Positions 4,538 to 22,003 of a stretch of DNA of 64,000 nucleotides are shown here, in pieces. The notes beneath the pieces are model-generated. The model was not told where the DNA came from. It searched no databases and was given only the letters and a program-made list of their open reading frames with translations. A program made the position numbers and the translations under genes. Numbering within the stretch: the first letter of the stretch is position 1; each line of letters opens with the position of its first letter. Source of the stretch: an uncultured Gammaproteobacteria bacterium. Lineage in GTDB: Bacteria > Patescibacteriota > Microgenomatia > CAZETR01 > Amesbacteraceae. The stretch is from positions 3,066-67,065 of the forward strand of contig CAYHIN010000001.1 in the NCBI GenBank assembly GCA_964356705.1. The letters are read 5' to 3'.

Positions 4538-6358
4538 TTACTTTTTTTCTATATTAAACAATCCACTCTTCACAGCCAGTGTCCCCGGCGCCCGCAAATT
4601 AAAGGCTTTCTTAAAGTTAACCCCCGATATCACCACTTCTCCTCTATTAGTCTGCAGTATCACCTGATCCGTATACCCGTTACTACTGTGTTTCACCGAC
4701 ACGCCCGAGACAGAAGTCACCCTTCCCCCATGTTTATCCGCCTCTTGTGCCATCCTGTCCTTAGACCACGGATTATCAGATCCTCCGTAGCAGGACCGCA
4801 CATCTTCCGGAAATACTCCGCTCATATCCCCGCCATTAGAAACCACAATCGCCGCATTTATCATGTCCGAAAATTCATCCATTTTGAGCCACGGATGAGA
4901 TCTCCCACACGTCTTTCCCGATCGGTCCTTGTACCAGCCTTTATAAAACCAGGGCGATCCTCCCACCTTTTCCCAAGCCCCCGATGCCCAGTTAGTCCAG
5001 TCAGAAGTGGTATCCCAAAACCCAGGTGTAGTATGTCCAATACTCGTGTAGCTGTCTTGATGTCCTCCCGAAGTCGATGCGTACCAAGTATTTACTATTT
5101 CTCCACTAGTCTTTGAGACCACGATCTCTCCTTCCGTTTGTGACACCGCGTCTCCCCATCTTCCCGGATTTCCAGATTTACTACTACTGTATACCTGGCA
5201 CGCCTCGGTCGTACATATCGATCCATTCGCGTTCTGATTACCTATTCTCCATCCTGTATAAGACAGCGCGTATGACCGGGCCGCAATCGCCTGGGCTTTC
5301 ATCGCCTCAAATCCCCCCTGATCCGCCCACGAGGTCGGCATCTCGGCAATCCCTCTCAGATATTTGCCTTCAAATGCCAGCGTCCCGGCACTAGTTTTGA
5401 TTACACCCGGCATACTCACTTTTCTGATTTCTACGTTTCCATAGTAGGCTTCCAATATTTGTTTGTAGTTTTGTCCCGACTTGGCCCGACCATATGCCCC
5501 GTATTGACTCATGCCTTTATAGTGCGGCGCCCCAAATGAAAACATCGCAAATGCCGGTGAGAATCCCGGATTATAGTCGGGTCTGGCAGCCGGATCATCA
5601 GCCAGTGGCACATCCCCTACCGACGTCGCATAAGTTCCAGTTTTAGAAGCCAGTAGTGACTGTTGCCTGGCGGTAAGTGACGCGATTTTTCCTCCTAGAT
5701 CCGACTGATATTTACTCGCTTTGTCCACTTCCACTTGCAAAAAAGCTGCTTGTTTATCCACTCTCGTCTTCAGCCCGTCCAGATTTGTTTTTTGAGTTTT
5801 GAGACTTGTGGCTTGGGCATTGAGATTTGTTATTTCTCCTCCCACCGACACGATCAGTTCCCGGTCTTGTCTAGCTAGTTTTTCTCGGTAAAACAGGTCC
5901 TTAAAAAATTCCGATGCACTCTTCGCCGAAAATAGCACCATCATCATCGACTGTTCCCTTCTTCTTATATAGTCTTGTTTTAGTTTAGCCGCCATCAGCT
6001 GCTCTTTTACTCCGACCTTCACTTCTCGCTCAAATATGTCTTTAGTCAGTTTATCTAGCCGTGTATCTAGTCCCGTTATTTGGGACTTGAGATTTGTGGT
6101 TTGGGATTTGAGCCCATTCAACTCTTTCACATTTGTTGAGTTGGCTTTGGATATCGCATCCAGTATTCCCGAGTATTTACTAATACACCCCGATATCACA
6201 CTAGAGTCCGACAGCTTGCTCGGATCATCGCACTCCTCCGCCCACACTCCTCCCACGCCCAGCATACAAAAGGCAAGGAAAAACAATACATAATACTTTA
6301 TACGTAATACGTGATACACAAGTCTCGGCATTGACTGTATTTTACATGTTAAACTCAA
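4538..6358 (-). CDS. SpoIID/LytB-domain protein with N-terminal coiled coil
   Basis: Signal/TM, long coiled coil, then the EAMKAQAIAARSYALSYTGW motif typical of SpoIID/LytB amidase enhancers. Contains family B and D repeat insertions. Confidence 0.6.
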   Translation of the reverse strand: MSLTCKIQSMPRLVYHVLRIKYYVLFFLAFCMLGVGGVWAEECDDPSKLSDSSVISGCISKYSGILDAISKANSTNVKELNGLKSQTTNLKSQITGLDTRLDKLTKDIFEREVKVGVKEQLMAAKLKQDYIRRREQSMMMVLFSAKSASEFFKDLFYREKLARQDRELIVSVGGEITNLNAQATSLKTQKTNLDGLKTRVDKQAAFLQVEVDKASKYQSDLGGKIASLTARQQSLLASKTGTYATSVGDVPLADDPAARPDYNPGFSPAFAMFSFGAPHYKGMSQYGAYGRAKSGQNYKQILEAYYGNVEIRKVSMPGVIKTSAGTLAFEGKYLRGIAEMPTSWADQGGFEAMKAQAIAARSYALSYTGWRIGNQNANGSICTTEACQVYSSSKSGNPGRWGDAVSQTEGEIVVSKTSGEIVNTWYASTSGGHQDSYTSIGHTTPGFWDTTSDWTNWASGAWEKVGGSPWFYKGWYKDRSGKTCGRSHPWLKMDEFSDMINAAIVVSNGGDMSGVFPEDVRSCYGGSDNPWSKDRMAQEADKHGGRVTSVSGVSVKHSSNGYTDQVILQTNRGEVVISGVNFKKAFNLRAPGTLAVKSGLFNIEKK

Positions 6359-7359
6359 ATCACATGCGCAGATTTTTTCTCCTTACGACTCTTTTTTTAT
6401 TTTTATCAGTCACCCAAACTCAAGCCCAACAGTTTAAATGCATAAAAACCCCAAATTGTGATCCGTGTACAAACTGGTCAACCGCAGCAAACTGTCTCAA
6501 CACTGCCACAAACACAAATCTTTGTAATACCGGGGTAAATCCTTGTACTGCTTTCTCAGCCAGCTGTCCAGACAACGGCTCCCAGCTGGATCAGTTCCAA
6601 GTCCAAACATGTTCCACTGTTCTTCCTGCTTGTTCTAGTCCAAACCTATGTCTCTCAGAAAGCGCCTGCTCAAATCCAGTCTCTGGATTTAGCTGCGGTG
6701 GAAATCTCATATGCTGTGCTCCACCAGGAGAGCCCACTTCTACTCCAGTTCCAACAACCGCTCCTACTGCTTGTGAGACATTTTCCGGACCGTACAACAA
6801 CCCCTTTGTCTGTATGTCTCCCGGCGGGGCAGTCTCGGGAAGTTACGATTGCAATCCAGGCGGATCATCTCCACTGTTTGACCCAACTGCTCCTCCAAAT
6901 AGTTATGACAATGCCTGCGGATGTGCCGCCGCTACAAAAAGTTCATGTTCTCTCATTTGTTGCCACAGTAACAGCACCGTCGGACCACCTGGCACTACGG
7001 GCGTCCCTCCATACCAACCCTCCTCATTATGCGTCCCTCCTAACGGATCTACTTATACAGGTGTAAAAACTCCCTTTGGCTGTCTTCCTTATACTGGAGC
7101 CGATGGTCCAGCAAAAACGACCGTGGTCGTCCTCTCAAACTGGGCCGTTGCCATTTCCTCCAGCATCGCCATCTTTATCATCCTCTTCGCAGCACTTCAG
7201 ATAGCCACAGGCAGTGGTGACCCCAAGCGCATCAAAGCCGGCCAAGAACTCCTTTTCTCCGGTCTCGCCGGCCTATTTTTGATAAGCCTGGCCATTGTTG
7301 TTCTCAACTTTTTGGGAGTAACCATCTTAGGTCTAGATCTTTTGGGCTTCTTCGTCTGA
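6331..7359 (+). CDS. T4SS pilin-like protein (VirB2/TrbC-type C-terminal domain) with N-terminal Cys-rich Pro/Thr-rich extracellular extension
   Basis: Signal peptide, then about 220 aa with more than 30 Cys. The C-terminal 110 aa are paralogous to the downstream pilin array (TM - SGDPKRIKAGQE - TM). Confidence 0.6.
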   Translation: MTVFYMLNSNHMRRFFLLTTLFLFLSVTQTQAQQFKCIKTPNCDPCTNWSTAANCLNTATNTNLCNTGVNPCTAFSASCPDNGSQLDQFQVQTCSTVLPACSSPNLCLSESACSNPVSGFSCGGNLICCAPPGEPTSTPVPTTAPTACETFSGPYNNPFVCMSPGGAVSGSYDCNPGGSSPLFDPTAPPNSYDNACGCAAATKSSCSLICCHSNSTVGPPGTTGVPPYQPSSLCVPPNGSTYTGVKTPFGCLPYTGADGPAKTTVVVLSNWAVAISSSIAIFIILFAALQIATGSGDPKRIKAGQELLFSGLAGLFLISLAIVVLNFLGVTILGLDLLGFFV

Positions 7360-7378: not shown

Positions 7379-7723
7379 ATGGCCAGTCCACTGTGTGTTC
7401 CATCAGGTGCAACCGGAAATCTAGGTGTCTCTACTCCTTTTGGCTGTCTACCCTTTGGTGGCAATGCAGGTCCTGCTACCCCGATGATCACTGTTTTAGT
7501 AAATTGGAGCGTGGGTCTAGCCGCAGGCGTAGCTCTCCTCACTCTTATTTATGCCTCTTTTCAGATCGTCACCGCCGCAGGTGACGCCAAGCGCGTCCAA
7601 GCCGGCCGCGAGTTAGTAACTGCCAGCATCGGCGGTCTGATCTTAGTCGTCATGGGTATAGTTATCCTTAATTTTTTAGGTGTCAGCGTCCTAGGATTGG
7701 ACGCTCTAGGCTTTAAGATATAA
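7379..7723 (+). CDS. VirB2/TrbC-like T4SS pilin paralog
   Basis: Two TM helices separated by the loop AAGDAKRVQAGRE. Near-duplicate of the C-terminus of the 6331 ORF. Confidence 0.6.
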   Translation: MASPLCVPSGATGNLGVSTPFGCLPFGGNAGPATPMITVLVNWSVGLAAGVALLTLIYASFQIVTAAGDAKRVQAGRELVTASIGGLILVVMGIVILNFLGVSVLGLDALGFKI

Positions 7724-7733
7724 TTGTAAGCAC

Positions 7734-8036
7734 ATGCGCACACTCGCCCAAATCAGCATTCCCCCTCCAACTGGTCTCAGATTTTCCAATTACAACGATC
7801 TTCCCGCCGATCTCTTTACCCGCATTTTATTATTCGCCATGGCAGCCAGTGGCCTTATATTTTTTGTTCAGCTCATCATGGCCGGTTTCAATCTCCTCAC
7901 TTCTTCCGGTGACCCAGCCAAGATCCAGTCAGCCACCAAAGCTCTCACCAATTCTCTCACCGGGCTTATCATTGTCATTAGTACTTATTTCATCGCCCAG
8001 ATTATCCAAGCCATTTTGGGCCTCCAGATAGTCTAG
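7734..8036 (+). CDS. VirB2/TrbC-like T4SS pilin paralog
   Basis: TM - SSGDPAKIQSATKALT - TM. Confidence 0.6.
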   Translation: MRTLAQISIPPPTGLRFSNYNDLPADLFTRILLFAMAASGLIFFVQLIMAGFNLLTSSGDPAKIQSATKALTNSLTGLIIVISTYFIAQIIQAILGLQIV

Positions 8037-8039
8037 CTT

Positions 8040-8363
8040 ATGGCCAGTACACCTATAAACAGTATTTTTACAAATCATCCCTCAGCAGGTATTGTGGCCG
8101 CCACTCCCGCCTCACTCATCTCATATCTACTCCCAAACATTATGGCCGCGGCTGGCATCATCTTCTTTCTCATGATTCTGGGCGGCGGCTTCATGATGGT
8201 CAAAAACGCCGGTGGCAGCCCAAGTGCCCAAGATACCGCAAAAGCCAGGTCAGCAATTACTATGGGCATCATTGGTTTCTTGCTTGTAGTATCCGCCTAC
8301 TTTATACTTCAGATAGTCCAAGCCCTAACCGGAGTCAACTTTATAATTACTCCCATTTTTTGA
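8040..8363 (+). CDS. VirB2/TrbC-like T4SS pilin paralog
   Basis: TM - AGGSPSAQDTAKARSAIT - TM. Confidence 0.6.
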   Translation: MASTPINSIFTNHPSAGIVAATPASLISYLLPNIMAAAGIIFFLMILGGGFMMVKNAGGSPSAQDTAKARSAITMGIIGFLLVVSAYFILQIVQALTGVNFIITPIF

Positions 8364-8366
8364 CAG

Positions 8367-8729
8367 ATGAAGCTACTCGCCCAACAATTCGGTACTGTTG
8401 AAAATCCCTTTCTACCCAAATATTACAATGTTCCCGGATATATAGGGTTTTCCCAGGGCCAAGGTCTTATCATTCTTCTCAATAATCTTGTCAAATTCAC
8501 CATCGTCCTTGCGGGCCTCTACACTTTTTGGAACATCATCGCCGCAGGCTTTATGTTCATGTCCGCGGGTGGCGAAGCAAAAAACATTACCAAAGCCTGG
8601 GACAAGATCTGGCAATCACTCATTGGTTTGTTATTAGTAGCCGCTTCCTTTATACTTGCGGCCGTATTCGGATATCTGATCTTTGGTGATACTAAAGCGT
8701 TATTACAACCTCGAATATTTACCCCATGA
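8367..8729 (+). CDS. VirB2/TrbC-like T4SS pilin paralog
   Basis: TM - SAGGEAKNITKAWDKI - TM. Confidence 0.55.
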   Translation: MKLLAQQFGTVENPFLPKYYNVPGYIGFSQGQGLIILLNNLVKFTIVLAGLYTFWNIIAAGFMFMSAGGEAKNITKAWDKIWQSLIGLLLVAASFILAAVFGYLIFGDTKALLQPRIFTP

Positions 8730-9100
8730 AAAACTTACTCGCCCAAGGTACTCCTATTGGCAATTTCGATGGCCTAGGACCTCTGGGAAACACCAGAAAT
8801 CTATATCTGGGTGGGGCAAATACAGGCGGTGCATTTGAAAAAGTCATCTCTTTGGTAATCGGTGTTCTTACTGTCTCTGCAGGGCTTTGGTTTCTTTTCC
8901 AAATCTTCACAGGAGCTATCTCCTGGATATCCAGTGGTGGGGACAAACAAGCCGTCCAAAACGCTCAAAAAAGAATGTCTCACGCCATAATTGGCTTGTT
9001 CGTCTTGGTCGCAGCTTACGGACTCATAGCTACGGTCGAGCTTGTCTTTGGACTTCAGATATTAGATTTTCAAGGTCAGTTTTTAAATCTTCGCCCATAG
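8726..9100 (+). CDS. VirB2/TrbC-like T4SS pilin paralog
   Basis: TM - SSGGDKQAVQNAQKRMSHAIIGL - TM. Confidence 0.6.
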   Translation: MKNLLAQGTPIGNFDGLGPLGNTRNLYLGGANTGGAFEKVISLVIGVLTVSAGLWFLFQIFTGAISWISSGGDKQAVQNAQKRMSHAIIGLFVLVAAYGLIATVELVFGLQILDFQGQFLNLRP

Positions 9101-9102
9101 AT

Positions 9103-9438
9103 ATGTTGCTTGCCAGAATCATCAACCCCGCTCTAAACAGTAAAGTCGGCAACACTACGATCCAGGGAGATGGTCCTGGTATTTTGCAGCTGTTTTTAAG
9201 AAACTTTATCGATATTGCCCTCGGCACCGCCGGCGTCATCTTTTTCTTCATGTTATTACGTGGAGGTTACGAATATCTCACCGCCGGCGGAGACAAAGAG
9301 GCCGTCCAAAAGGCAACGAAGAGACTCACCACTTCGTTCATTGGTATTGCAATCATCTTCTCTCTTTTTGCCCTCGTCTTTATTGTTGAGGCATTATTTG
9401 GCATCTCGCTGTTGCAGATAAACATTCCCACTATATGA
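9103..9438 (+). CDS. VirB2/TrbC-like T4SS pilin paralog
   Basis: Start taken at the internal ATG (MLLARIIN), because the upstream part of the 8887 ORF overlaps the previous gene. TM - AGGDKEAVQKATKRLT - TM. Confidence 0.55.
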   Translation: MLLARIINPALNSKVGNTTIQGDGPGILQLFLRNFIDIALGTAGVIFFFMLLRGGYEYLTAGGDKEAVQKATKRLTTSFIGIAIIFSLFALVFIVEALFGISLLQINIPTI

Positions 9439-9764
9439 ACCTTCTTGCCCAAGCCACCATCAATCTCACAAACCCCTTATCACCTTATAGAAACCTCTTC
9501 TCTCTTCGTCCCTCTAGTTTAGTTTCAGCCGCTATCAGTCTCCTCCTTGGGGCAGCAGGTGTCACGGCCTTCATTTATCTTCTCGTGGGCGGTATCCAGT
9601 GGATTACTAGCAGTGGCGACAAAGAAGGACTGGACAAAGCCAAGAAAAAAATTACCCACGCTCTCATCGGTTTGGCGATCGTCTTCTCAGCTTACGCTTT
9701 GATCTTCATCATCCAAGCATTGTTCAACATTAGTGTCATCGGTGTCAATATTTCTCCTATTTAA
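9435..9764 (+). CDS. VirB2/TrbC-like T4SS pilin paralog
   Basis: TM - SSGDKEGLDKAKKKITHALIGL - TM. The 3' 80 nt are nearly identical to the next paralog. Confidence 0.6.
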   Translation: MNLLAQATINLTNPLSPYRNLFSLRPSSLVSAAISLLLGAAGVTAFIYLLVGGIQWITSSGDKEGLDKAKKKITHALIGLAIVFSAYALIFIIQALFNISVIGVNISPI

Positions 9765-9821
9765 TTCCTTAGTACTTTGCACTTAGCTCTTAGCACTATA
9801 TAATAAACTTAATGAAGGGAG

Positions 9822-10256
9822 GTGAATAATCAAGTGAGCAAAATACAAAAAATAATTCAGTTTGGGACCGCTTTGGGTACAGTATTGGCAGTCAACCCTG
9901 CTTCCGTTCTGGCCCAAGGAGCTTTTGATCCCACAGACAATGTAAATATCGCTCCCGAAGCAGGCGTTTTCAGCAAACTACCTGGTCTTCGTCCGTCCGC
10001 TTTCATTAGTGGAGCCATCAGTTTCCTGCTCGGAGTAGCAGGTGTAGTCGCCTTTATCTTCCTACTTTGGGGAGGCCTACAGTGGATCCTCGCCGGTGGC
10101 GACAAAGAAGGTACCGAAAAGGCTCGCAAGAAGATCACCTCCGCTCTCATCGGTTTGGCGATCGTCTTCTCAGCTTACGCTTTGATCTTCATCATCCAAG
10201 CGTTGTTCAACATCAGTGTCCTTGAAGTGTCTCTGAAACCACTAGGTAATCTCTAA
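9822..10256 (+). CDS. VirB2/TrbC-like T4SS pilin paralog with clear signal peptide
   Basis: Signal ALGTVLAVNPASVLAQG, then TM - AGGDKEGTEKARKKITSALIGL - TM. Confidence 0.65.
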   Translation: MNNQVSKIQKIIQFGTALGTVLAVNPASVLAQGAFDPTDNVNIAPEAGVFSKLPGLRPSAFISGAISFLLGVAGVVAFIFLLWGGLQWILAGGDKEGTEKARKKITSALIGLAIVFSAYALIFIIQALFNISVLEVSLKPLGNL

Positions 10257-10335
10257 ATTACCTTATGGTAGATGAATCAATTCCGTCATTCCGGACGAAA
10301 GTCTAGTTAGACTTCCGGAATGACGGCACATATCT

Positions 10336-10626
10336 ATGCCAGCCAAACTTAGCAATTTACAAGATGTATTTTCCAACGTCTTGGTTTCTGTTCTCTCGCT
10401 CATAGGTCTTGTGACTTTTGGCATGCTTTTGTGGGGCGGAGTCCAATATCTTACGGCGGGCTCCGATAAGGAGGCCGCAGGCAGGGCCAGAAACACGATT
10501 ACCTACGCTCTCATTGGTCTCATCCTCGCCATTTCCTCCGTCATGATCATCAATCTTTTGGGCACCTTCTTAGGTCTGGATTTCAGCACGTTCAACATTT
10601 GTCTCCCCGGGACCACTTCCTGCTAA
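10336..10626 (+). CDS. VirB2/TrbC-like T4SS pilin paralog
   Basis: TM - AGSDKEAAGRARNTITYALIGL - TM. Preceded by a strong stem-loop. Confidence 0.6.
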   Translation: MPAKLSNLQDVFSNVLVSVLSLIGLVTFGMLLWGGVQYLTAGSDKEAAGRARNTITYALIGLILAISSVMIINLLGTFLGLDFSTFNICLPGTTSC

Positions 10627-10640
10627 TATATAATAGTTCC

Positions 10641-13600
10641 ATGCTCCGTAAATTTTTCTTTTTCCTCATCGTATTTCTTCTCACGATCCATATTTTCCAT
10701 CCCCCAAGCACCCAAGCAGATTACCCAAACGACTGTGCTCTCGATTATCCCATTTGTCACACCAGTATTCCTCCAGGGACACCCGTAGGCACTTGTCTCA
10801 ACCACAGTGTCATAGGCTGCAACACCTCTTCCGGAGTACCGGGAGTTTGGTGCTGCCCCTCCTCATTTATTTTCCCTTCACTCACACCGACCCCCCCATC
10901 TGTCCCCACTTGCATCGCCAATGGCAATTATTGCGTAGCCACAAATGTCGCTTGTGATCCCGGCCACACCAGAGGTCAAGGTGGCAATTGTGAAACTGGA
11001 AAAATCTGCTGTGCCATCACCCTTCCTACTGTGCCTCCTCCCGGCGGCCCTCCGGGTCCCATTCCCCTACCCACCTATCCGACAAATTTTAGCCCCCTAG
11101 AATATCCCTGCAACACGACCACCGACGAAGAGTTTCATCCCCTACGTCCCTATCCGGCTTCTCCCTGCGACCCCCTCATTCCCAAAAAACAGGAGCCCGA
11201 TTTTCTTTCCTTCGCCTGCGGCAAGAGCCTAAATACTCTGGGAGAGTATCCCGTCAGCCGCAGTTTTACCCAAGCTCAGTTAGACGCCATGTCCCCCATT
11301 TTTCAAAACTACGGCGAGCCTTACCGTTGCGGCGCCCAGGTCTGTATCCGCAAACGCTCCGTTTTTGATATTGCCCTCGATTTATCGAGTGCCAAGTTGC
11401 CAATTATCGGCAACACCCAAGATCCCCTCGACGACGCCACCAAAGTCAACAATTATCTATCTTGGTATCTGGCCGGCACCAATCCCACCTGGCTCGAGGA
11501 CCTAAATTTGGCCACCCCAGCCCAAAACGTCAACTCCCAGTGTATCGGCACCTCACTGGCCACCTTCATGAACACCGTTGTATCTGGGACCACAAATTTA
11601 CGCAACATCCGCCTCACTTCTCCAGCCTTCAATCTTACCAATCCCGCCGAGCAGGATATTTTTATCGCCATGAGCCAGGCCGGAGCCAACTTTGCAGATA
11701 TCGACGCATTTGCCGGCAACACCTACACTCTAAATGGCGTAGCCGCCTACGATTGGGTCATCAGTCCCTCATTTCGCGGAGCCGACGGCAAAACCTGGAA
11801 AGAAAAATTCACAAGTTTCAACAAAGGCATTATCTTTACCGAATTCGGGGATTTTGCCACTTTTGACAACCCTCCCGGATCTCCAAATCGCGCCTCGGTC
11901 ATAAGCGCCATGCGCCAAGAATTCACCAATACCGCAGGCGATGGTGTCGTCAAATCCATCAACTATTTCAACGCTTTTGGTGGCAATCCCCAATTTATAG
12001 GCCACCAATTGTCAATCTCAGAGCTCCAGGTTATTACCAGCTCAAATTATTCAAAAAGCGGGGTCAATTCCGCCCAGGGAGTCAATCGCGATTTTCCCCC
12101 CAGAGTGGGCAGTGCCGGTCTCAAGTGGAGCGTGGAGATCATCACCTCGCCCGGTGATGAGACAGGTGCTATCGAATCCATCAACGCCGCCCATCGCGCA
12201 GGTGTCATCCCCATTATTCGCCCTTGTTACGGCAATTCCTGTGGTTTTGCCGATCCAGTTGTATATGTAGATTTCATCAGTCGGGTATCCCAGCGTGTGA
12301 CCGATCAGTCCCGCGAGATTTGGTTCATAGCCGGCCCAAACGAGCCCGCCGGTGAGCATTGGGCCGCCCCTCTTTGTGGCACTGCCGGCCAGCCCGTAGC
12401 CAGTATCGATTCTTTCTTGACTTACGCCGGTCCTATTCGTAAGCTCCTACCCCAGTATTCTCTGGATACCATCCGCTACGTTCTGGCTACCAATCAAGGG
12501 CGCAATGTCCACAATTATTTACTCGATACTCAAGGCCGCCGTATTTCCCAAGTTCCATCCTTCATTCGTCTCTATTCTCCCACCGATATCTGGACCAAGC
12601 TCTTCCAAAGAGTTCCCCTCGCCACTATGGAAGACGTCGTGGGCGAGGTCACCGTGGGCCTCATTACCTCTCCTAGATCCGACGGCTCATCTCCCCAACC
12701 ACCCGACGTTTATGTTGTAGACCCCAGCCACCCCGATGCCATGCGCCTTACCATCAAAGACGGATCGGACTCCCGCCTCTATTTCCCTCATCTCAAGACC
12801 GTAAGTTCCTTAGTCGAAGTCCTAAATGCTATCTCGAGACCCAAGCTCTCCCAAAACTATCGCCCCGATGAGCGAAACGTCACCCAGTATATCAACGAAC
12901 ACCAAGGTATCGATGACTCCACTCCTATCCAAAGAAAATCCAACGAAGGCAATTACACCGGACTCACTCGCAACACCGAAATTAGAGAAGGCGAGCCCGC
13001 CCCTACAGCTCTCTTTGGCCAAAATGATCATTTTGAGTTTGACCAGCGCTGCGAGCTCACGACCACCCAGGACGCCGTAGGTGACAATCTTTTTGGCCAG
13101 ACTATCAATGGTCGCCTCGCCTATACACATGATCTAAAGTTTGACCCCGTCGTCCAACCCAATGCTTGTCTTCCAGATTTTGCCGTCTGTACACCTGGCG
13201 TCGACGTTTGTTGTGACAATGCCGTATGCAGCAACGTCACTCTTGGTGGTATTGATTACGGCGACCGTTGTCACGGCGGCAATCCCAATTCCAGTTCCAT
13301 TCCCACTGAAGCTCGTGTCGCAGTCTTTACCAAGACTCCTCTCATCGATCGCTTTTATGGCGATCTTATTTCCAACTCCAACTCTTTCTTTAGACGTTTC
13401 GTCAATTGGTACGACCGGTCCACCGGCGGCCCAGATACAACGATTAGGTCAGGTTCTCTTACTTTTCCCGCCAAGACCCAAGTCGGTTATACTGCTACAG
13501 CCCCCATTCCTCCACCCGTAAGCCCCGAGACAGCCCCAGGCAATCCCAAAGCCGGAGCCGGCAACAATACCGGCGGCGCCGAGATTTATTTCCCCAGGCT

Positions 13601-15128
13601 CGGAAGTCTGGCCGATTATTTCCTAGGTGGTCCCACCAACGAGAGATTAAATCTCCAAAAGATGTTCCGTCCCAAAAACTTTGGTAGTCTTATCGGCCCG
13701 GGTGGTGCCGGCATTTTGGCCGCCTGCCAGCCGTATCTCTCCAATTTCCCCGGATCCATTACCGTAAACATCCAAAATCCCAAAAACGTCTTCTCCAAAG
13801 TCGGCGACAGTATTACCGTTTCGCCTAATTTCCTAGATGCCTTTGCCGGAGCATACAACCTCGGTAGTCATACCGGCCTTCAATCGGTAATCAATTTCTT
13901 CACTCCCTTATCTTTCACGGAAAATACCCTTGCCGCAGGCATCGGGTGGAACACCCAGGACCTTATAAATAATAATTTTTCCGCTCTAGAGTCTGAATAC
14001 ACCCGTACCAAGCCTGCCGTGGCCATTATCATGATCGGCACCAACGATTCCGGTGGCTCCAACCAAGTTGTGGTCCCAGTCTACACCGATCGTTTAGAAC
14101 GCATCGTAAATTACACTGTTAGCAAGGGTATAATTCCCATCCTCAGTACTCTCCCCCATCTCACCAACGCCAATCCCCAGCACAATACCAATACCGAATT
14201 GCTAACCGGAGCCATCAAAGACGTTTCGACCAGACTGGGTGTTCCCCTCATGGACTACCGCCTCGCCACCGAGCAAATAAATACTGCTGCACGCAACTGG
14301 GGCATTAGTACTGACAACATCCATCCTTCCGTCGGCGGTGGCAATGCCGGCGATCTTTCCGATTTACCCATGAGTGAAGGCGGCTACAATGTCCGAAACT
14401 TCGTCTCCCTTTGCGCCCTAGATGCAGTTTGGAAGACCAGACTGGGAGGAGATAGCTCTAGTAGTGGAGACTGCTTCACGGCAGCCCAACCCGTTACCGC
14501 TTCCTGCTCGGCGCCCGGATCCACTCCCCTAAACTATGCTTGTCACACCAATCTTGAGCTCAAATCCATAATCCAAGAGTCAGCAAATAAGTTCGGGGTA
14601 AATCCCAGCGTCCTCTTAGGTATTCTTAGTGTCGAAACCAGGAATGGTATTTTTGGAATTACTTCAGGTGAAGTGAGACGCCACTCCACTTCCACCTCAC
14701 AAACCGGCTTTACTCCATATATTTGTCAACCAAATTCTTGTGGCGCCATGGGAGCCATGCAGCTTTTGACTGGCATTGGCGTCCAGCCCAGTTGTTCTCA
14801 AGCCTACGGTATCAACAATTGGGCTCTATATGGTTCGGCCGTCGTAGAAGCTTGCAAAGCCCCCTCTGGTTACGGACCAAATCCCGGTAATATCCGAGAC
14901 TCAATATACGCCGGAGCAAAAATGATCGGCAGCTTCGGCCAGAACTCAAATTCCGAAGCCGGAGTCAAAGAAATCGGTCGCAGATATTTTGGCAACGACA
15001 CTTCCCGTTTTGATCTCTTTGTAAACTTGGATTACATAAACGACTGTGTCCCAGGCTACACCACACCTTCCTCAGCTCGCAGCATGACCTATGGTGAATA
15101 TCTTTGGGAAGTAGCCCGAGTTAGATAA
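10641..15128 (+). CDS. giant secreted cell-wall hydrolase: Cys-rich N-domain, SGNH/GDSL esterase domain and C-terminal SLT/lysozyme-like domain
   Basis: Start taken at MLRKFFFF (signal peptide). GDSL blocks are VGDSIT, MIGTNDSGG and DNIHPS. SLT-like motifs are QESANKFGV...LSVET...AMGAMQLL. The ORF track starts at 10599, overlapping the previous gene. Confidence 0.65.
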   Translation: MLRKFFFFLIVFLLTIHIFHPPSTQADYPNDCALDYPICHTSIPPGTPVGTCLNHSVIGCNTSSGVPGVWCCPSSFIFPSLTPTPPSVPTCIANGNYCVATNVACDPGHTRGQGGNCETGKICCAITLPTVPPPGGPPGPIPLPTYPTNFSPLEYPCNTTTDEEFHPLRPYPASPCDPLIPKKQEPDFLSFACGKSLNTLGEYPVSRSFTQAQLDAMSPIFQNYGEPYRCGAQVCIRKRSVFDIALDLSSAKLPIIGNTQDPLDDATKVNNYLSWYLAGTNPTWLEDLNLATPAQNVNSQCIGTSLATFMNTVVSGTTNLRNIRLTSPAFNLTNPAEQDIFIAMSQAGANFADIDAFAGNTYTLNGVAAYDWVISPSFRGADGKTWKEKFTSFNKGIIFTEFGDFATFDNPPGSPNRASVISAMRQEFTNTAGDGVVKSINYFNAFGGNPQFIGHQLSISELQVITSSNYSKSGVNSAQGVNRDFPPRVGSAGLKWSVEIITSPGDETGAIESINAAHRAGVIPIIRPCYGNSCGFADPVVYVDFISRVSQRVTDQSREIWFIAGPNEPAGEHWAAPLCGTAGQPVASIDSFLTYAGPIRKLLPQYSLDTIRYVLATNQGRNVHNYLLDTQGRRISQVPSFIRLYSPTDIWTKLFQRVPLATMEDVVGEVTVGLITSPRSDGSSPQPPDVYVVDPSHPDAMRLTIKDGSDSRLYFPHLKTVSSLVEVLNAISRPKLSQNYRPDERNVTQYINEHQGIDDSTPIQRKSNEGNYTGLTRNTEIREGEPAPTALFGQNDHFEFDQRCELTTTQDAVGDNLFGQTINGRLAYTHDLKFDPVVQPNACLPDFAVCTPGVDVCCDNAVCSNVTLGGIDYGDRCHGGNPNSSSIPTEARVAVFTKTPLIDRFYGDLISNSNSFFRRFVNWYDRSTGGPDTTIRSGSLTFPAKTQVGYTATAPIPPPVSPETAPGNPKAGAGNNTGGAEIYFPRLGSLADYFLGGPTNERLNLQKMFRPKNFGSLIGPGGAGILAACQPYLSNFPGSITVNIQNPKNVFSKVGDSITVSPNFLDAFAGAYNLGSHTGLQSVINFFTPLSFTENTLAAGIGWNTQDLINNNFSALESEYTRTKPAVAIIMIGTNDSGGSNQVVVPVYTDRLERIVNYTVSKGIIPILSTLPHLTNANPQHNTNTELLTGAIKDVSTRLGVPLMDYRLATEQINTAARNWGISTDNIHPSVGGGNAGDLSDLPMSEGGYNVRNFVSLCALDAVWKTRLGGDSSSSGDCFTAAQPVTASCSAPGSTPLNYACHTNLELKSIIQESANKFGVNPSVLLGILSVETRNGIFGITSGEVRRHSTSTSQTGFTPYICQPNSCGAMGAMQLLTGIGVQPSCSQAYGINNWALYGSAVVEACKAPSGYGPNPGNIRDSIYAGAKMIGSFGQNSNSEAGVKEIGRRYFGNDTSRFDLFVNLDYINDCVPGYTTPSSARSMTYGEYLWEVARVR

Positions 15129-15302: not shown

Positions 15303-16847
15303 ATGCCCAAAATAAAGAATTTCCTATCTTCTCTCCTTCTCTGTCTTACGCTCTCCTCCTTCTTTCCCTACTTTGCATTAGCCGTGGATGGTCCTTGGTA
15401 TAACCAAAATCCCCAACAATTCGGCCAAAAAGTCTTTGGGGGCGATCAAAACGAAATCTTTGGCGAACGCTATACCTTTGCCCAAGTTAACTGGATAATA
15501 AACAGTTTAAATTTGATATTAAATCCAACCAACGGCCAAACCCCGGACGCCATAAAAGGTATCGTTTGTGCCATCATCCCTCTTATCTCTCCAGGCTCTC
15601 CCTGCCCCATTGCCTCTACGCCTGAAAATAAGTGGATTGCTTACTCACAACTAGGTATAAATGGGCTTCTTGTTGGGGGCATCACCGAAATTACCGCTTC
15701 CCCACCAGCATCCGGAATTTTAGAAATAGGCGAGACTCTTGCAAAATTTGACCCTGCAACTCCCGTCCAGGCCCAAGGAGGTTATGGATTTGAAAGCTTA
15801 AACGGACTCAGAGTCATTTGGGGCGCTTCGCGCAACATGGCTTATCTCATTATGGTGATTTTGCTTATCGCCACCGGCTTTATGATCATGTTTCGAGTCA
15901 AGATCAATCCCCAAACCGCAGTCTCACTTCAAATCATGATTCCAAAAGTTATTTTCACTCTACTCCTAGTTACCTTTTCCTATGCAATAGCTGGGCTCGT
16001 AATCGATCTTGTTTATGTTGTCCTCGCCTTCGTAATCTCTGGACTCACGCTGTCCCAAGCAATTACCCCTCTCAGTCTTCCTGGTTCAGTGGGCTGGTTC
16101 TTTACCCCAGACTTTGGCAAGATATTCGGCTACTATCTTTTGTCGTGGCTCGTACAGATAGCAATCGGCGGAATTGCCGGTCTAATTGGAGTGGGCCTTG
16201 CTACACTGATGCCACCCTTAGCTCCATTTGTTGGATTACTAGGAACAATCTTTGCTCTTATTGAAATTATTTTTGCATTTGTACTTCTCTGGCTTCTATT
16301 TAAAGTTTGGTGGATGATGGTCAAAACCTATTTAACACTCATGTTTTTGATAGTTATTGGTCCTTGGCAAATTATGTTGGGCTTACTTCCCGGACAACAA
16401 GGTTTTGGAGGGTGGTTCAGAAATATTATAGCCAATGCCTCCGTATTTCTAACTGTTCCTATTATGTTTTTACTCAACATGTTCTTCTGGCCGATGAGTC
16501 CTTTCAGTCCGTTAGGTCAAGTAAATGGTGGAGCATCAGATTTACCCAGTTTTCCTCTCTTCGCTACAAAAGGCGGAATTTTTGGATTCGCAGTAGGCTT
16601 TGCCATATTATCGATGATCCCCAAAATTGCTGATATTATTAGAGACGCTCTCAAGATCCCACCATTCAAATATGGCTCAGCTCTAGGCGAGGCTCTAAGT
16701 CCACTTAAGATGGTAACCTCTCCTGCGGGTGGAGCAATCTCAGCAGGTGGTAGCAACGAACTAAAGGGTGCTACCACTGGATTACAATATGCCTCTGGCG
16801 GCATACGTCAGGCTGCTGGAGACTGGTTGAAAGGATCTATCAGGTAA
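15303..16847 (+). CDS. VirB6/TrbL-like polytopic T4SS membrane protein
   Basis: Signal peptide, about 180-aa extracellular domain, then at least 6 TM helices. Position between the hydrolase and VirB4 matches ConG/VirB6 in Gram-positive T4SS. Confidence 0.5.
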   Translation: MPKIKNFLSSLLLCLTLSSFFPYFALAVDGPWYNQNPQQFGQKVFGGDQNEIFGERYTFAQVNWIINSLNLILNPTNGQTPDAIKGIVCAIIPLISPGSPCPIASTPENKWIAYSQLGINGLLVGGITEITASPPASGILEIGETLAKFDPATPVQAQGGYGFESLNGLRVIWGASRNMAYLIMVILLIATGFMIMFRVKINPQTAVSLQIMIPKVIFTLLLVTFSYAIAGLVIDLVYVVLAFVISGLTLSQAITPLSLPGSVGWFFTPDFGKIFGYYLLSWLVQIAIGGIAGLIGVGLATLMPPLAPFVGLLGTIFALIEIIFAFVLLWLLFKVWWMMVKTYLTLMFLIVIGPWQIMLGLLPGQQGFGGWFRNIIANASVFLTVPIMFLLNMFFWPMSPFSPLGQVNGGASDLPSFPLFATKGGIFGFAVGFAILSMIPKIADIIRDALKIPPFKYGSALGEALSPLKMVTSPAGGAISAGGSNELKGATTGLQYASGGIRQAAGDWLKGSIR

Positions 16848-19629: not shown

Positions 19630-19705
19630 TGTCCAATTATACCGTACCCAGGCTAATTTGGCCGCCGGCCATAAAACAACAAGCCGTGCCCCAAAACATC
19701 AGTTT

Positions 19706-20196: not shown

Positions 20197-20279
20197 ATCA
20201 TCATTTTAACATTTTAATACAATTAGATTAATCCCAATCAAAAAACAATAGTTAACATTTCGGATATAATCAAATCAAT

Positions 20280-21338: not shown

Positions 21339-22003
21339 AACCCTCTACACAATCCCATTTAGATATCTACGACATCCAAAACGATCTACTGATCCTCAAG
21401 GACGGCTCAGTGTGTCTCCTCTTGGAGGTCTCCGCTATCAACTTCGGCCTCTTCTCCGAAAGAGAGCAAGAAGCCACCATTTATGCATATGCTCAGTTGC
21501 TCAATTCTCTCAATTTTACGATCCAAATAGTCATCACCAGCAAAAGAAAAGATATTACTGATTATCTAGACAAGCTCGAGGTCAGGCTATCATCTGCCCC
21601 TTCCCCAAAGATCAAAGACCAGCTTCTCAAATATCGCGATTTTATAAAGTCCATCGTCCGCCAGGGTAATGTCTTGGACAAGAAATTTTTCATTTCCATC
21701 CCCTTCTCGTCTCTGGAATTAGGTGTCAGCTCAGCTCTCAGTGCTTTTTCAAAAAAACCCACCAAGCCCCTCTCTCCTATCCCCACGATAGTCGAAAGAG
21801 CCACAAACAATCTCACTCCCAAACGAGATCATTTGATCAGATTGTTAGCCCGGATCGGCCTCAAATCTCGCCAGCTCGGAACCCTTGAGCTTCTCCAATT
21901 GTTCTATGACTCCTACAACGCCACAGATTTGGGTACCAAGGTGACACTTCCCATACAAGCAGGTGTCATCCTGAGCGAGCGTACACCTAAACCAACATCA
22001 TGA
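21335..22003 (+). CDS. probable N-terminal fragment of VirB4-family ATPase
   Basis: DIQNDLLILKDGSVCLLLEVSAINFGLFSEREQEATIYAYAQLLNSLNFTIQIV resembles the N-terminal region of Gram-positive VirB4 homologs. ATGA overlap with the following ATPase ORF. Confidence 0.45.
   Translation: MKPSTQSHLDIYDIQNDLLILKDGSVCLLLEVSAINFGLFSEREQEATIYAYAQLLNSLNFTIQIVITSKRKDITDYLDKLEVRLSSAPSPKIKDQLLKYRDFIKSIVRQGNVLDKKFFISIPFSSLELGVSSALSAFSKKPTKPLSPIPTIVERATNNLTPKRDHLIRLLARIGLKSRQLGTLELLQLFYDSYNATDLGTKVTLPIQAGVILSERTPKPTS

What the first reader, a model, noticed from the sequence alone, without database searches (positions are those of the whole stretch)
7379..10626. Tandem array of about ten VirB2/TrbC-like two-TM pilin paralogs
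Ten consecutive 96-144 aa ORFs share a hydrophobic helix, a conserved G-(G/S)-D-(K/P)-x-A-x-x-K-A-x-K loop and a second helix. The N-termini are divergent; several begin M-x-LLAQ, and one carries a clear signal peptide. This degree of paralog expansion suggests antigenic or functional diversification of the secreted filament subunit, or heteropolymeric pili.
Basis: seen in the sequence. Interest (0 to 1): 0.7.

Follow-up and report, generated by a model that had tools for sequence, protein, structure and literature searches.

The report
Ten-gene T4SS pilin array, Patescibacteria
This is a real block of ten back-to-back genes for small VirB2-like "pilin" membrane proteins beside a type IV secretion system in a groundwater Patescibacteria (Candidatus Amesbacteria-like) genome; such arrays are already published, but this one turns out to be an old, fixed set of specialised subunits and not a fast-changing repertoire.

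Summary
Nine small genes (7379-10626) plus the C-terminal domain of the upstream gene (6364-7359) all carry one helix / charged loop / helix domain, and all match Pfam PF18895 T4SS_pilin. No other copy is in the window. The array lies in a conserved locus: SpoIID, pilin array, large secreted hydrolase, PrgI-like, TraC-like, VirB4-like, dnaN/dnaA. The nearest genomes are Candidatus Amesbacteria (Microgenomates).

This kind of array is already published. Wang 2023 showed an essential pilin array in Southlakia. Quinonero-Coronel 2025 counted 441 arrays of 2-11 genes, mostly in Microgenomatia and Saccharimonadia.

New here:
- The array is collinear across relatives. Each gene best matches the gene of the same rank (50-67% identity, against 33% between paralogs), and all ten are under purifying selection. 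This argues against antigenic variation.
- The rank of gene p8 is the most conserved, has a signal peptide, and alone keeps a Shine-Dalgarno site in a genome that mostly lacks them. It is the candidate major subunit. Gene p0 carries a 24-cysteine ectodomain.
- The M-x-LLAQ heads match signal-peptidase sites (A-x-A|Q). The same motif sits at the junctions of fused multi-hairpin homologues, one of them at the same locus.

No pilus has been demonstrated.

The parts
6364..7359 (+). p0: rank-0 pilin-domain protein of 331 aa (an alternative TTG start at 6331 gives 342 aa). It has a signal peptide ending TQA|QQ, an ectodomain of about 225 aa rich in Cys (24 Cys) and Pro, and a C-terminal pilin hairpin.
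   Evidence: PF18895 E 2.6e-4 over residues 268-328. Own profile E 3.5e-25. The 331-aa form equals database protein P0121. Cys count. Only 4 homologues were found, and the ectodomain diverges fast.
7379..7723 (+). p1: 114-aa pilin. It is a partial duplicate of the last ~114 aa of p0, including the LCVP...TPFGCLP Cys pair. It has no signal peptide.
   Evidence: 47% identity to the p0 C-terminus. PF18895 22.1 bits. Both p0 and p1 map to rank 0 of the relatives' arrays. The duplication is shared only with L006.
7734..8036 (+). p2: 100-aa pilin with head MRTLAQ. A TATAAT box lies 11-16 nt before the ATG.
   Evidence: PF18895 28.8 bits. Orthologues at rank 1-2 keep M-x-LAQ(I/L). Upstream sequence.
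8040..8363 (+). p3: 107-aa pilin with a longer loop (GGSPSAQDTAKAR) and an LLPN motif.
   Evidence: PF18895 29.2 bits. Rank-specific signature in orthologues.
8367..8729 (+). p4: 120-aa pilin with head MKLLAQ and a rank-specific C-terminus (I/L)SPRIFTP.
   Evidence: PF18895 only 12.7 bits, but own profile E 9e-35. Orthologue alignment.
8726..9100 (+). p5: 124-aa pilin with head MKNLLAQ and an LGN(I/F)xG(I/L)GPLG N-tail motif. Its start overlaps the p4 stop (ATGA). It is one of the two fastest-evolving copies.
   Evidence: PF18895 25.9 bits. 53% identity to the L006 orthologue. Alignment.
9103..9438 (+). p6: 111-aa pilin with head MLLAR, an I-NPAxN N-tail and a C-terminus NIPTI.
   Evidence: PF18895 32.5 bits. 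The true start was inferred from the alignment, since ORF listing gives the longer 8887 start that overlaps p5.
9435..9764 (+). p7: 109-aa pilin with head MNLLAQ. Orthologues in six other Amesbacteria-type arrays have a full signal peptide, so the signal peptide was lost in this lineage. Bases 9659-9718 are identical to p8.
   Evidence: PF18895 30.9 bits. Orthologue alignment. 60-nt perfect tract.
9834..10256 (+). p8: 140-aa pilin and candidate major subunit (the first in-frame start, GTG 9822, would give 144 aa). The signal peptide is MSKIQKIIQFGTALGTVLAVNPASVLA|QG. The loop GGDKEGTEKARKKIT is almost invariant.
   Evidence: PF18895 35.1 bits and PF04956 21.4 bits. 388 homologues, with the 140-aa form P0001 at 99% identity. 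Invariant columns. It is the most conserved rank at 66.9%. AF2 places helices at 4-24, 60-90 and 95-129.
9776..9821 (+). Expression signals of p8: a promoter-like TTTGCA-17-TATAAT (9776-9804) and the Shine-Dalgarno-like AAGGGAGG (9814-9821).
   Evidence: Promoter scan (the number of sites in the region is not above shuffles). Sequence. An SD-like motif is kept at this rank in 9 of 11 relatives, against 0-1 of 11 at most other ranks. Only 3 of 31 other genes in the window have one.
10336..10626 (+). p9: 96-aa pilin with no signal peptide in this genome. It has a rank-specific C-terminal Cys pair F-x-I-C-x(5-7)-C.
   Evidence: Best Pfam match of the ten, PF18895 45 bits, E 1.2e-11. The Cys pair is conserved in orthologues, several of which have a signal peptide.
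10142..10201 (+). Gene-conversion tract: 60 nt identical to 9659-9718 in p7, covering helix 2.
   Evidence: The perfect tract sits inside a 235-nt repeat that is 67% identical outside it. The L006 p7 orthologue differs here, while its p8 orthologue matches.
4538..6358 (-). SpoIID-domain protein, transcribed divergently from the array. It is the conserved left neighbour.
   Evidence: PF08486 E 8e-14. It lies next to a pilin array in most of the 80 Microgenomates loci.
10641..15128 (+). Large secreted Cys-rich protein (38 Cys in the 1509-aa ORF from TTG 10599; the ATG-10641 form is 1495 aa) with a GDSL hydrolase domain. It is the conserved right neighbour and a possible cell-wall or host-envelope enzyme.
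   Evidence: PF13472 E 1.3e-10. Signal-anchor and Cys count. Faint SLT_2 hint, E 0.049. Synteny.
15303..16847 (+). 514-aa protein with a signal peptide and about five hydrophobic segments. It is a candidate VirB6-like polytopic component (inference only).
   Evidence: Hydropathy. No Pfam family.
20280..21338 (+). PrgI-like (VirB3-type) T4SS membrane protein.
   Evidence: PF12666 E 2.2e-7.
21335..22003 (+). TraC-like / TrsD-type protein (N-terminal VirB4-like).
   Evidence: PF26593 is precomputed for the identical gene in L001.
22000..23880 (+). VirB4-like T4SS ATPase.
   Evidence: PF19044 E 4.6e-32, plus PF12846 and PF01935.

Best explanation
The ten genes are the VirB2-like pilin set of the chromosomal, Gram-positive-type (MPF-FATA-like) type IV secretion system that is typical of Patescibacteria.

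What is shown:
- Each product is a helical hairpin.
- The Lys/Arg-rich loop G-G-D-K-x-x-x-Q-K-A-x-K lies between the two hydrophobic helices.
- The genes are packed with gaps of -4 to +19 nt from p0 to p7.
- The array is ancient and collinear.

What is inferred:
- The charged loop stays on the cytoplasmic side, and the N- and C-tails face outward.
- The genes are co-transcribed and translationally coupled.
- The VirB4-driven machine extracts the subunits from the membrane and assembles them into one surface structure, a pilus or short conduit towards a host cell.
- That structure is made of one abundant subunit and several specialised minor ones.
- p8 is the candidate major subunit.
- p0 is the candidate adhesin or tip subunit, because it carries a 24-Cys ectodomain on a pilin anchor.
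- p9 (C-terminal Cys loop) and p2-p7 are rank-specific minor subunits.

Export (inferred): p0 and p8 use Sec signal peptides that are cut at A-x-A|Q. The short-tailed copies insert without one. Their M-x-LLAQ heads are the retained C-region of that cleavage site.
For: Family:
- All ten match PF18895.
- 41 of 41 p8 orthologues match PF18895, and 20 of 41 also match TrbC/VirB2 at E<0.01.
- Nine of ten give weak hits to the mycoplasma ICE pilin-like family NF045849.

Hairpin shape and topology:
- Hydropathy shows two segments in each copy.
- The loop holds 2-5 K/R, and the N-tails of p1-p7 and p9 are short, 7-35 aa.
- The AF2 model of p8 has helices 60-90 and 95-129 at pLDDT 75-90.

T4SS linkage:
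- PrgI-like, TraC-like and VirB4-like genes lie 10-12 kb downstream.
- The same order SmpB...SpoIID(-), array, large secreted protein, PrgI/TraC-like is found in relatives.

Fixed specialised set:
- 8-12 pilin-domain ORFs sit next to SpoIID in many of the 80 Microgenomates loci wherever enough flank is present.
- Each window gene best-hits the same-rank gene in Amesbacteria-type arrays, and largely so in other orders.
- Same-rank identity between genomes is 50-67%, against 33% between paralogues within a genome.
- Orthologues keep rank-specific motifs.
- pN is 0.12-0.39 against pS 0.62-0.83 for all ten genes compared with L006.

Major-subunit candidate:
- The p8 rank is the most conserved.
- It is the only rank with a conserved SD-like motif, in 9 of 11 relatives, in a genome where 3 of 31 genes have one.
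- It has its own promoter-like site.

Co-assembly (Rosetta-stone argument):
- All of the top 150 hits of an exhaustive profile search are proteins with 2-11 or more pilin hairpins fused in one ORF.
- One of them, P0128, replaces the first genes of the array at the same locus.

Cleavage motif:
- 58 of 101 full-length p8 homologues end their signal peptide in (V/I/A)(F/L)A-Q.
- 25 of 328 fusion junctions carry [AVS][YHQAL]AQ, against 2.0 +/- 1.4 in shuffles.
- Mature A. tumefaciens VirB2 also starts with Gln (QSAG) after signal-peptidase cleavage (PMC9905601).

Published support: pilin arrays are reported in Patescibacteria, and the one in Southlakia epibionticum is essential (PMC10633639, PMC12102498, PMC12857230).
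Against: - No filament or any assembled structure has been shown for any Patescibacteria T4SS.
- Gram-positive-type T4SSs normally lack pili (PMC12102498, PMC12857230).
- The match to classical VirB2/TrbC stays below Pfam's threshold (21.4 bits against 27.9).
- A profile of p8 orthologues finds no solved pilin by sequence.
- Foldseek gives no significant hit (best E 0.68). Generic hairpins such as ATP-synthase subunit c score as well as anything.
- The major/minor assignment rests on conservation and translation signals, not on abundance data.
- The SD test used regions of unequal length, and the promoter-like sites are not more numerous than in shuffles.
- dS is saturated against the nearest genome, so dN/dS is only a bound.
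- A 4-6 residue M-x-LLA head cannot act as a Sec signal peptide, so why it is conserved is unexplained.
- Homologues with 6-17 fused hairpins are hard to reconcile with extraction of single subunits into a helical filament.
Confidence: 0.6

Rival explanations
1. Diversification for host range or immune and phage evasion. The copies are alternative versions of one surface subunit, and they vary so that the cell can engage different hosts or escape recognition. This is what has been proposed for the VirB2 paralogues of Bartonella and Anaplasma, and it was suggested for Patescibacteria arrays.
For: - Paralogues are very divergent, with mean identity 32%.
- The outward-facing N-tails differ most.
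- p0 and p5 evolve fastest, at 46% and 53% identity to the nearest orthologue.
- Copy number changes at ranks 0/1 and 7/8, and arrays range from 8 to 12 genes.
- A 60-nt conversion tract between p7 and p8 shows that recombination between copies does occur.
- The authors of PMC12102498 suggest adaptation to different host strains.
Against: - Every rank has a 1:1 same-position orthologue across Amesbacteria and largely across other Microgenomates orders.
- Same-rank identity is well above paralogue identity.
- Rank-specific motifs are kept.
- All copies are intact, tightly coupled ORFs and not silent cassettes.
- pN is far below pS in all ten.
- Only one short conversion tract was found in the array.
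Confidence: 0.12
2. Not an extended pilus. The hairpins form a fixed-stoichiometry hetero-oligomeric ring or tube in the membrane and cell wall. This would be a channel or stalk of the T4SS that stands in for the VirB6, which is hard to find in Microgenomatia, and it would resemble the way hairpin subunits build rotor c-rings.
For: - A constant number of about 9 distinct ranks is kept over long evolutionary time.
- Homologues exist with 2-17 hairpins in one polypeptide. This suits a closed assembly better than a filament of extractable monomers.
- Recognisable VirB6 is scarce in Microgenomatia (PMC12102498).
- VirB6 and CedA N-termini are reported to be homologous to VirB2/CedA1 (PMC9905601).
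- The fold search returns hairpin proteins such as F1Fo subunit c at the same weak level as everything else.
Against: - The window has a separate polytopic candidate for VirB6 at 15303-16847.
- The family is named and modelled on pilins, and half of the p8 orthologues touch the TrbC/VirB2 profile.
- A signal-peptide-bearing, SD-driven, highly conserved p8 looks like a bulk structural subunit.
- In the locus-equivalent fusion P0128 and many two-hairpin fusions, the junctions carry A-x-A|Q sites. That suggests they are cut into monomers.
Confidence: 0.2
3. Small two-TM membrane proteins with a role unrelated to the T4SS, for example envelope stress, holin-like pores or transporter accessory subunits. 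On this view they merely lie near T4SS genes.
For: - Some database records name homologues 'TRAP-type C4-dicarboxylate transport system permease small subunit' or 'cytochrome bd subunit 2'.
- There are weak Pfam hits to other membrane families.
- The array is about 10 kb from VirB4, and an opposite-strand gene and a HicAB pair lie in between.
Against: - Those names come from automatic annotation, and the other Pfam hits are far weaker than PF18895.
- Linkage to PrgI, TraC-like and VirB4 genes is conserved in relatives.
- In Southlakia the pilin series lies inside the T4SS cluster and is essential together with it (PMC10633639).
Confidence: 0.03

Closest known systems
Patescibacteria T4SS pilin arrays (Southlakia epibionticum SEML1_0006-0019 cluster, Wang et al. 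2023, PMC10633639; survey by Quinonero-Coronel et al. 2025, PMC12102498)
   Same: - Tandem, sequence-divergent VirB2-like (PF18895/PF04956) genes lie near virB4, prgI and a TrsD/TraC-like gene in a Patescibacteria chromosome close to dnaA/dnaN.
- No relaxase or coupling protein was detected nearby.
- Array size falls within the reported 2-11 genes.
- Such arrays are reported as most frequent in Microgenomatia.
   Different: - With ten copies, this array is at the top of the reported range.
- Its pairwise identity is higher than the published values: mean 32% against 25%, and maximum 65% against 54%. The maximum is inflated by a conversion tract.
- The published work does not describe positional orthology, a candidate major subunit, the ectodomain-bearing first gene, or fused multi-hairpin forms.
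- Essentiality is known only for the six-gene Saccharibacteria array.
VirB2/TrbC/TraA conjugative pilins of Gram-negative T4SSs (Pfam PF04956; T-pilus and F-pilus)
   Same: - Small helix-loop-helix membrane proteins with a basic loop.
- A Sec signal peptide cut at A|Q. Mature VirB2 starts QSAG (PMC9905601).
- Genetic linkage to VirB3, VirB4 and VirB6-type genes.
   Different: - Only sub-threshold profile similarity.
- There is normally one pilin gene per system, not ten.
- The host here is a monoderm with a Gram-positive-type T4SS.
- Most copies lack a signal peptide.
- No filament has been shown.
Archaeal Ced/Ted DNA-import pili (CedA1, TedC; PMC9905601)
   Same: - VirB2-like pilins work with VirB4- and VirB6-like proteins in an envelope without an outer membrane, and not for conjugation.
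- Both processed (TedC) and unprocessed (CedA1) subunits exist. This parallels the mix seen here of copies with and without a signal peptide.
   Different: - No sequence similarity was tested or expected.
- Those systems have single pilin genes, not a ten-gene array.
VirB2 paralogue expansions in Bartonella and Anaplasma phagocytophilum (cited in PMC12102498)
   Same: Tandem amplification of T4SS pilin genes in a host-dependent bacterium.
   Different: Those expansions are interpreted as antigenic or host-interaction variation. Here the copies are old, position-specific orthologues under purifying selection.
Mycoplasma ICE 'Mbov_0395 family pilin-like conjugal transfer protein' (NCBIfam NF045849)
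   Same: - A small pilin-like two-TM protein of an MPF-FATA-type conjugative element in a wall-less monoderm.
- Nine of the ten copies give hits to it (E 1e-5 to 0.05).
   Different: - All scores (13-25 bits) are below the family cut-off of 40.
- It is a single gene in ICEs.
- The relationship is a lead for the origin of the Patescibacteria pilins, not a membership.

Membership tests
Pfam PF18895 T4SS_pilin | Profile match at or above the gathering score (26.6 bits) | tested here: met
   p2 28.8, p3 29.2, p6 32.5, p7 30.9, p8 35.1 and p9 45.0 bits pass. p0 21.4, p1 22.1, p5 25.9 and p4 12.7 bits are below, but a profile of the array joins them to the others at E 1e-25 to 1e-35.
Pfam PF18895 T4SS_pilin | Two hydrophobic helices joined by a short charged loop | tested here: met
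   Kyte-Doolittle segments. Loop with 2-5 K/R. AF2 hairpin in p8 at 60-90 and 95-129.
VirB2/TrbC conjugative pilin (Pfam PF04956) | Profile match at or above the gathering score (27.9 bits) | tested here: not met
   Only p8 hits, at 21.4 bits, E 2.9e-4. 20 of 41 p8 orthologues hit at E<0.01, with best E 9.3e-6. This indicates remote homology, not membership.
VirB2/TrbC conjugative pilin (Pfam PF04956) | Fold like solved TraA/VirB2 pilins | tested here: inconclusive
   The model is a helical hairpin. Foldseek against PDB gives no hit with E<0.68 and no pilin among the top 50 listed matches. A sequence profile against PDB finds none.
VirB2/TrbC conjugative pilin (Pfam PF04956) | N-terminal leader removed by signal peptidase | not testable with these tools
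   p0 and p8 have n-, h- and c-regions that end in A-x-A|Q by inspection. Eight copies have no signal peptide. Cleavage itself needs protein data.
VirB2/TrbC conjugative pilin (Pfam PF04956) | Polymerises into an extracellular, lipid-containing pilus | not testable with these tools
   No structural or proteomic data are available. The literature states that this is still speculative for Patescibacteria (PMC12857230).
Patescibacteria T4SS pilin array (PMC12102498 definition) | Two or more PF18895/PF04956 genes in tandem or separated by one gene | tested here: met
   Ten consecutive genes with gaps of -4 to 79 nt.
Patescibacteria T4SS pilin array (PMC12102498 definition) | Located in a Patescibacteria genome near virB4 (within 20 CDS) | tested here: met
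   The nearest genomes are Candidatus Amesbacteria / Microgenomates. The VirB4-like gene at 22000-23880 is about 8 genes downstream of p9.
Patescibacteria T4SS pilin array (PMC12102498 definition) | No relaxase or coupling protein in the cluster | tested here: met
   No relaxase or T4CP Pfam family was found in any ORF of at least 150 aa in the window. The rest of the genome was not seen.
Antigenic-variation cassette systems (pilE/pilS type, or VirB2 paralogues of Bartonella/Anaplasma) | Silent or partial cassettes, or rapid turnover without 1:1 orthologues | tested here: not met
   All copies are complete ORFs. There is rank-by-rank orthology. pN is well below pS. Only one 60-nt conversion tract was found.
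NCBIfam NF045849 Mbov_0395 pilin-like conjugal transfer protein | Profile match at or above the cut-off (40 bits) | tested here: not met
   Nine of ten copies hit at 13-25 bits.

The most novel reading that the evidence does not exclude
The array may encode an ordered heteromeric T4SS surface structure whose subunits can be made in either of two ways: from separate genes, or from covalently fused multi-hairpin precursors.

In the fused form, the preceding second helix would act as an internal export signal, and signal peptidase I would cut at the extracytoplasmic junctions P-x-(A/V)-(Y/H)-A|Q. Every mature subunit would then begin with Gln. This would be a polyprotein route of pilin maturation that is not known for any T4SS.

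The conserved M-x-LLAQ heads and x-(S/T)-P-I tails of the window's genes would be the two halves of such a junction. The fixed gene order would reflect the order or stoichiometry of assembly.
Probability: 0.2. Interest if true: 0.65.

Novelty: new member of a known kind. Interest (0 to 1): 0.35.

Why it matters
Patescibacteria are a large, mostly uncultured branch of bacteria that live on other microbes. Their T4SS, with its unexpected pilin array, is the only T4SS known to be essential for its owner's growth, and what it builds or transports is unknown.

This locus adds no new kind of system. Comparing it with relatives does sharpen the open question:
- The array behaves as a fixed kit of about nine distinct subunits.
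- It has one likely bulk subunit (the p8 rank).
- It has one subunit that carries a variable cysteine-rich ectodomain (rank 0).
- Natural fusions exist whose junctions look like signal-peptidase sites.

These are concrete predictions that can be tested by proteomics, structure determination and genetics.

Tried and rejected
- **Fold search.** Foldseek of the p8 model against PDB gave only generic helical hairpins (best E 0.68). It cannot test pilin membership.
- **Sequence profile against PDB.** A profile of 41 p8 orthologues against PDB sequences returned only efflux-pump TM segments at E>=0.12.
- **p0 structure.** The AF2 model of p0, built from a 4-sequence alignment, had mean pLDDT 41.5. 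It is unusable, so I ran no fold search on the ectodomain.
- **Shared domain between p0 and its neighbour.** I asked whether the p0 ectodomain shares a domain with the neighbouring 1509-aa Cys-rich protein. BLASTP shows nothing (best E 1.6).
- **dN/dS.** Against the nearest genome (L006), pS is 0.62-0.83, so dS is saturated or undefined. I report only that pN is well below pS.
- **Promoter and terminator scan.** Counts are not above shuffles: 9 against 6.6 +/- 3.1, and 6 against 4.3 +/- 1.9. Only the site in front of p8 is mentioned, and only as a hint.
- **Lytic-transglycosylase or M23 domains in the large neighbours.** There are only faint hits: SLT_2 E 0.049 and M23 E 0.084.
- **Stop-codon read-through or an alternative genetic code.** This would join the genes into one protein. 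I rejected it because all three stop codons are used and adjacent genes are mostly in different frames.
- **Other copies in the window.** A scan for more pilin copies found none.

Full report

Yes. Between 7379 and 10626 there are nine + strand genes of 96-144 aa. The gene just upstream, p0 (6331/6364-7359), ends in the same domain, which makes ten copies.

- The alignment shows a hydrophobic helix, a loop of the form (A/S)-G-(G/S)-D-(K/P)-x-x-x-Q-K-A-x-K, and a second hydrophobic helix in every copy.
- A hydropathy scan finds two segments in each copy.
- The loop carries 2-5 Lys/Arg in each copy.
- Five copies start with M-x-LLAQ or a close variant.
- p8 and p0 have full signal peptides.
- All ten independently match Pfam PF18895 'T4SS_pilin', and six are above the curated threshold.
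- A profile made from the ten finds these ten and nothing else in a six-frame scan of the 64-kb window.
- Mean pairwise identity is 32%, and the highest is 65% for p7/p8.

- The stated interval holds nine genes, not ten. The tenth is a domain of a larger protein outside the interval.
- Two copies have signal peptides, not one.
- p6 starts at 9103, not at the 8887 reported by the ORF lister.

**2. Where does it sit?**

The window is chromosomal and comes from a Patescibacteria (CPR) genome.
- It carries tmRNA, dnaN, dnaA, YidC, L25 and LeuRS, GroEL and other housekeeping genes.
- An identical VirB4-like protein occurs on a contig from a Hainich groundwater metagenome.
- p0 equals an NCBI 'Patescibacteria group bacterium' protein on a 72-kb contig.
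- The closest genomes found with the neighbouring SpoIID-like protein are Candidatus Amesbacteria, followed by other Microgenomates.

Downstream of the array lie, in order:
- a 1509-aa secreted Cys-rich GDSL-domain protein;
- a 514-aa polytopic membrane protein;
- a 925-aa protein on the other strand;
- a HicAB pair;
- PrgI-like (VirB3-type), TraC-like and VirB4-like genes;
- a 1279-aa membrane protein, then dnaN and dnaA.

No relaxase or coupling-protein family was found in any ORF of at least 150 aa.

**3. Is it known?**

Yes.
- Wang et al. [quoted passage not shown]
- Quinonero-Coronel et al. 2025 (PMC12102498) searched 3,035 Patescibacteria genomes with PF18895 and PF04956. [quoted passage not shown] They also reported that the T4SS genes are often near dnaA/dnaN.
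- A 2025 review (PMC12857230) highlights these arrays and states that a pilus is still only a possibility.

The window is therefore one more member of this class, at the upper end of its size range.

**4. What the comparison with relatives adds**

*(a) Conserved locus.* In the 80 Microgenomates loci fetched around the SpoIID-like gene, arrays of 8-12 pilin-domain ORFs lie next to it wherever enough flank is present. The gene order from SmpB through SpoIID, the array and the large secreted protein to PrgI/TraC-like is kept.

*(b) Positional orthology.*
- Each window gene p2-p9 best-matches the gene of the same rank in Amesbacteria-type arrays, and mostly in other orders too.
- Core identity between same-rank genes of different genomes is 50-67%. 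Between paralogues of one genome it is 33%.
- Each rank keeps its own motifs. Examples are the ISPRIFTP end of p4, the LGNIxGIGPLG tail of p5, and the C-terminal F-x-I-C...C of p9.
- p0 and p1 both map to rank 0. p1 is a partial duplicate of the last ~114 aa of p0, and only the closest genome shares it.
- p7 and p8 are separate ranks within Amesbacteria but collapse onto one rank in more distant orders.

*(c) Selection.* Against the closest genome, all ten genes have pN 0.12-0.39 against pS 0.62-0.83. Synonymous sites are saturated, so this shows purifying selection only qualitatively. p0 and p5 change fastest.

*(d) One recent exchange.* p7 and p8 share a perfect 60-nt tract (9659-9718 and 10142-10201) inside a repeat that is 67% identical elsewhere. 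The closest relative's p7 differs there. This points to a conversion of p7 by p8.

Together these results argue against a rapidly varying repertoire. They favour a fixed kit of specialised subunits.

**5. A candidate major subunit**

- The p8 rank is the most conserved, with 28 invariant columns in 41 orthologues.
- It has a signal peptide.
- It is preceded by a 69-nt gap that holds a promoter-like site and AAGGGAGG.
- This genome rarely uses Shine-Dalgarno sites: 3 of 31 genes have one, and many genes have a TATAAT box a few bases before the ATG.
- Even so, an SD-like motif is present at the p8 rank in 9 of 11 relatives. At most other ranks the count is 0-1 of 11, and at the p6 rank it is 4 of 11.
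- The test is crude, because the regions compared differ in length.

The inference is that p8 is made in the largest amount and is the bulk subunit. p0, with 24 Cys in a fast-diverging ectodomain on a pilin anchor, is a candidate adhesin or tip subunit.

**6. The M-x-LLAQ heads**

- In p8 and p0 the signal peptide ends in V-L-A|Q and T-Q-A|Q, which are typical signal-peptidase I sites.
- 58 of 101 full-length p8 homologues have (V/I/A)(F/L)A-Q at that place.
- Signal peptides come and go among orthologues. p7 orthologues in six other arrays have a full one, while the window and its closest relative have only M(N/R)LLAQ. One p8 orthologue is cut down to MMRLLAQ. Short p8 homologues start MxxLLA.
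- The heads are therefore the retained C-region of the cleavage site.
- The short outward N-tails of 7-35 aa may be translocated without a signal peptide. Precedents exist for both modes in VirB2-like pilins: CedA1 is unprocessed, whereas TedC and VirB2 are cut, and mature VirB2 starts QSAG (PMC9905601).
- Why a 4-6 residue head stays conserved is not explained.

**7. Fused homologues**

- An exhaustive profile search of 1.84 billion representatives found 85,759 proteins at E<=1e-3. Of these, 18,965 had E<=1e-10.
- All of the 150 best hits contain 2 to 11 or more pilin hairpins in one polypeptide. HMMER reported 17 matched stretches in P0144. The list is ranked by summed score, so it favours such proteins.
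- One cluster includes a Candidatus Andersenbacteria protein.
- P0128 has three hairpins, the first being a rank-0-type ectodomain pilin. It occupies the first positions of the array at the same SpoIID-linked locus and is followed by five single pilin genes.
- 25 of 328 junctions between hairpins carry [AVS][YHQAL]AQ, against 2.0 +/- 1.4 in shuffles. They are concentrated in two-hairpin proteins (17 of 59). The consensus is P-x-(A/V)-(Y/H)-A-Q.
- That consensus is a signal-peptidase-type site. It lies where the chain would be outside the membrane, directly after a helix that runs from inside to outside.

I draw two inferences.
- Neighbouring paralogues work side by side in one assembly (a Rosetta-stone argument).
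- Some fusions may be cut into monomers that begin with Gln.

Long fusions of 6-17 hairpins lack the motif. They fit a closed membrane assembly better than a filament, and this keeps a ring or channel alternative alive.

**8. Membership and limits**

- The ten genes are members of PF18895, and the locus fits the published definition of a Patescibacteria pilin array.
- They are not members of PF04956 by its threshold, but half of the p8 orthologues touch it.
- Nine copies weakly touch a mycoplasma ICE pilin-like family. This is a lead suggesting that pilin-like proteins exist in monoderm MPF-FATA systems.
- The AF2 model of p8 is a hairpin, but fold and sequence searches against solved structures cannot tell it from other hairpins.
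- Nothing here shows that a filament is made.

**9. Verdict**

- The antigenic-variation reading is disfavoured, and the specialised heteromeric reading is favoured.
- Novelty is low, because this is a known kind of array.
- The rank-wise orthology, the p8 candidate and the junction motif give specific, testable predictions about a system whose function is an open question.

Noticed in passing
window 1-64000: The strand composition bias is extreme. GC skew of the + strand is -0.22 overall. At third codon positions it is about -0.43 on the + strand whichever strand the gene is on (-0.45 for + genes; +0.41 on the coding strand for - genes). Related Microgenomates loci show 0.2-0.33. The skew does not change sign at dnaA/dnaN (28209-30914) or in the ORF-poor gap 31519-33151. 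By skew, therefore, the replication origin is not next to dnaA in this window. This bears on the published idea that the T4SS lies at the origin.
   Followed up: partly
window, gene starts throughout (e.g. 15303, 19629(-), 20280, 10641, 7734): Only 3 of 31 genes have a Shine-Dalgarno-like motif. About half have a TATAAT-like box 6-12 nt before the ATG. This looks like widespread leaderless mRNAs. p8 is a conspicuous exception.
   Followed up: partly
database proteins P0125-P0274; locus L086 8001-9464: Tens of thousands of homologues of the pilin domain exist (85,759 cluster representatives). Many proteins carry 2-17 pilin hairpins fused in one ORF, and part of them have signal-peptidase-like A-x-A|Q junctions. 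I did not find this described in the papers I read.
   Followed up: partly
window 9659-9718 and 10142-10201: A perfect 60-nt identity between p7 and p8 inside otherwise 67%-identical sequence, consistent with a recent gene-conversion tract.
   Followed up: yes
window about 19700-20200 (- strand): A HicA/HicB toxin-antitoxin pair lies between the 925-aa gene and the PrgI-like gene, inside the T4SS neighbourhood (L001 3626-4116).
   Followed up: no
window 10641-15128 and 23873-27712: Two very large T4SS-linked proteins have almost no recognisable domains. The first is a 1509-aa secreted protein with 38 Cys, a GDSL hydrolase domain and a faint SLT hint. The second is a 1279-aa protein with three TM segments near residue 1000 and a faint M23 peptidase hint. 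They are candidates for cell-wall or host-envelope enzymes.
   Followed up: partly
window 16852-19629 (- strand): A 925-aa soluble protein with no Pfam match. A protein of similar size and position is conserved next to the T4SS genes in relatives (925-1092 aa).
   Followed up: no
window 60469-61329: A LAGLIDADG-domain protein gene (60559-61329) lies directly beside tRNA-Cys (60469-60540, - strand).
   Followed up: no
window 52401-52940 (- strand): An ORF with a '23S rRNA intervening sequence protein' domain (sub-threshold, 31.2 bits against 33.8), with no rRNA gene in the window. A similar gene sits inside the T4SS neighbourhood of relative L005.
   Followed up: no
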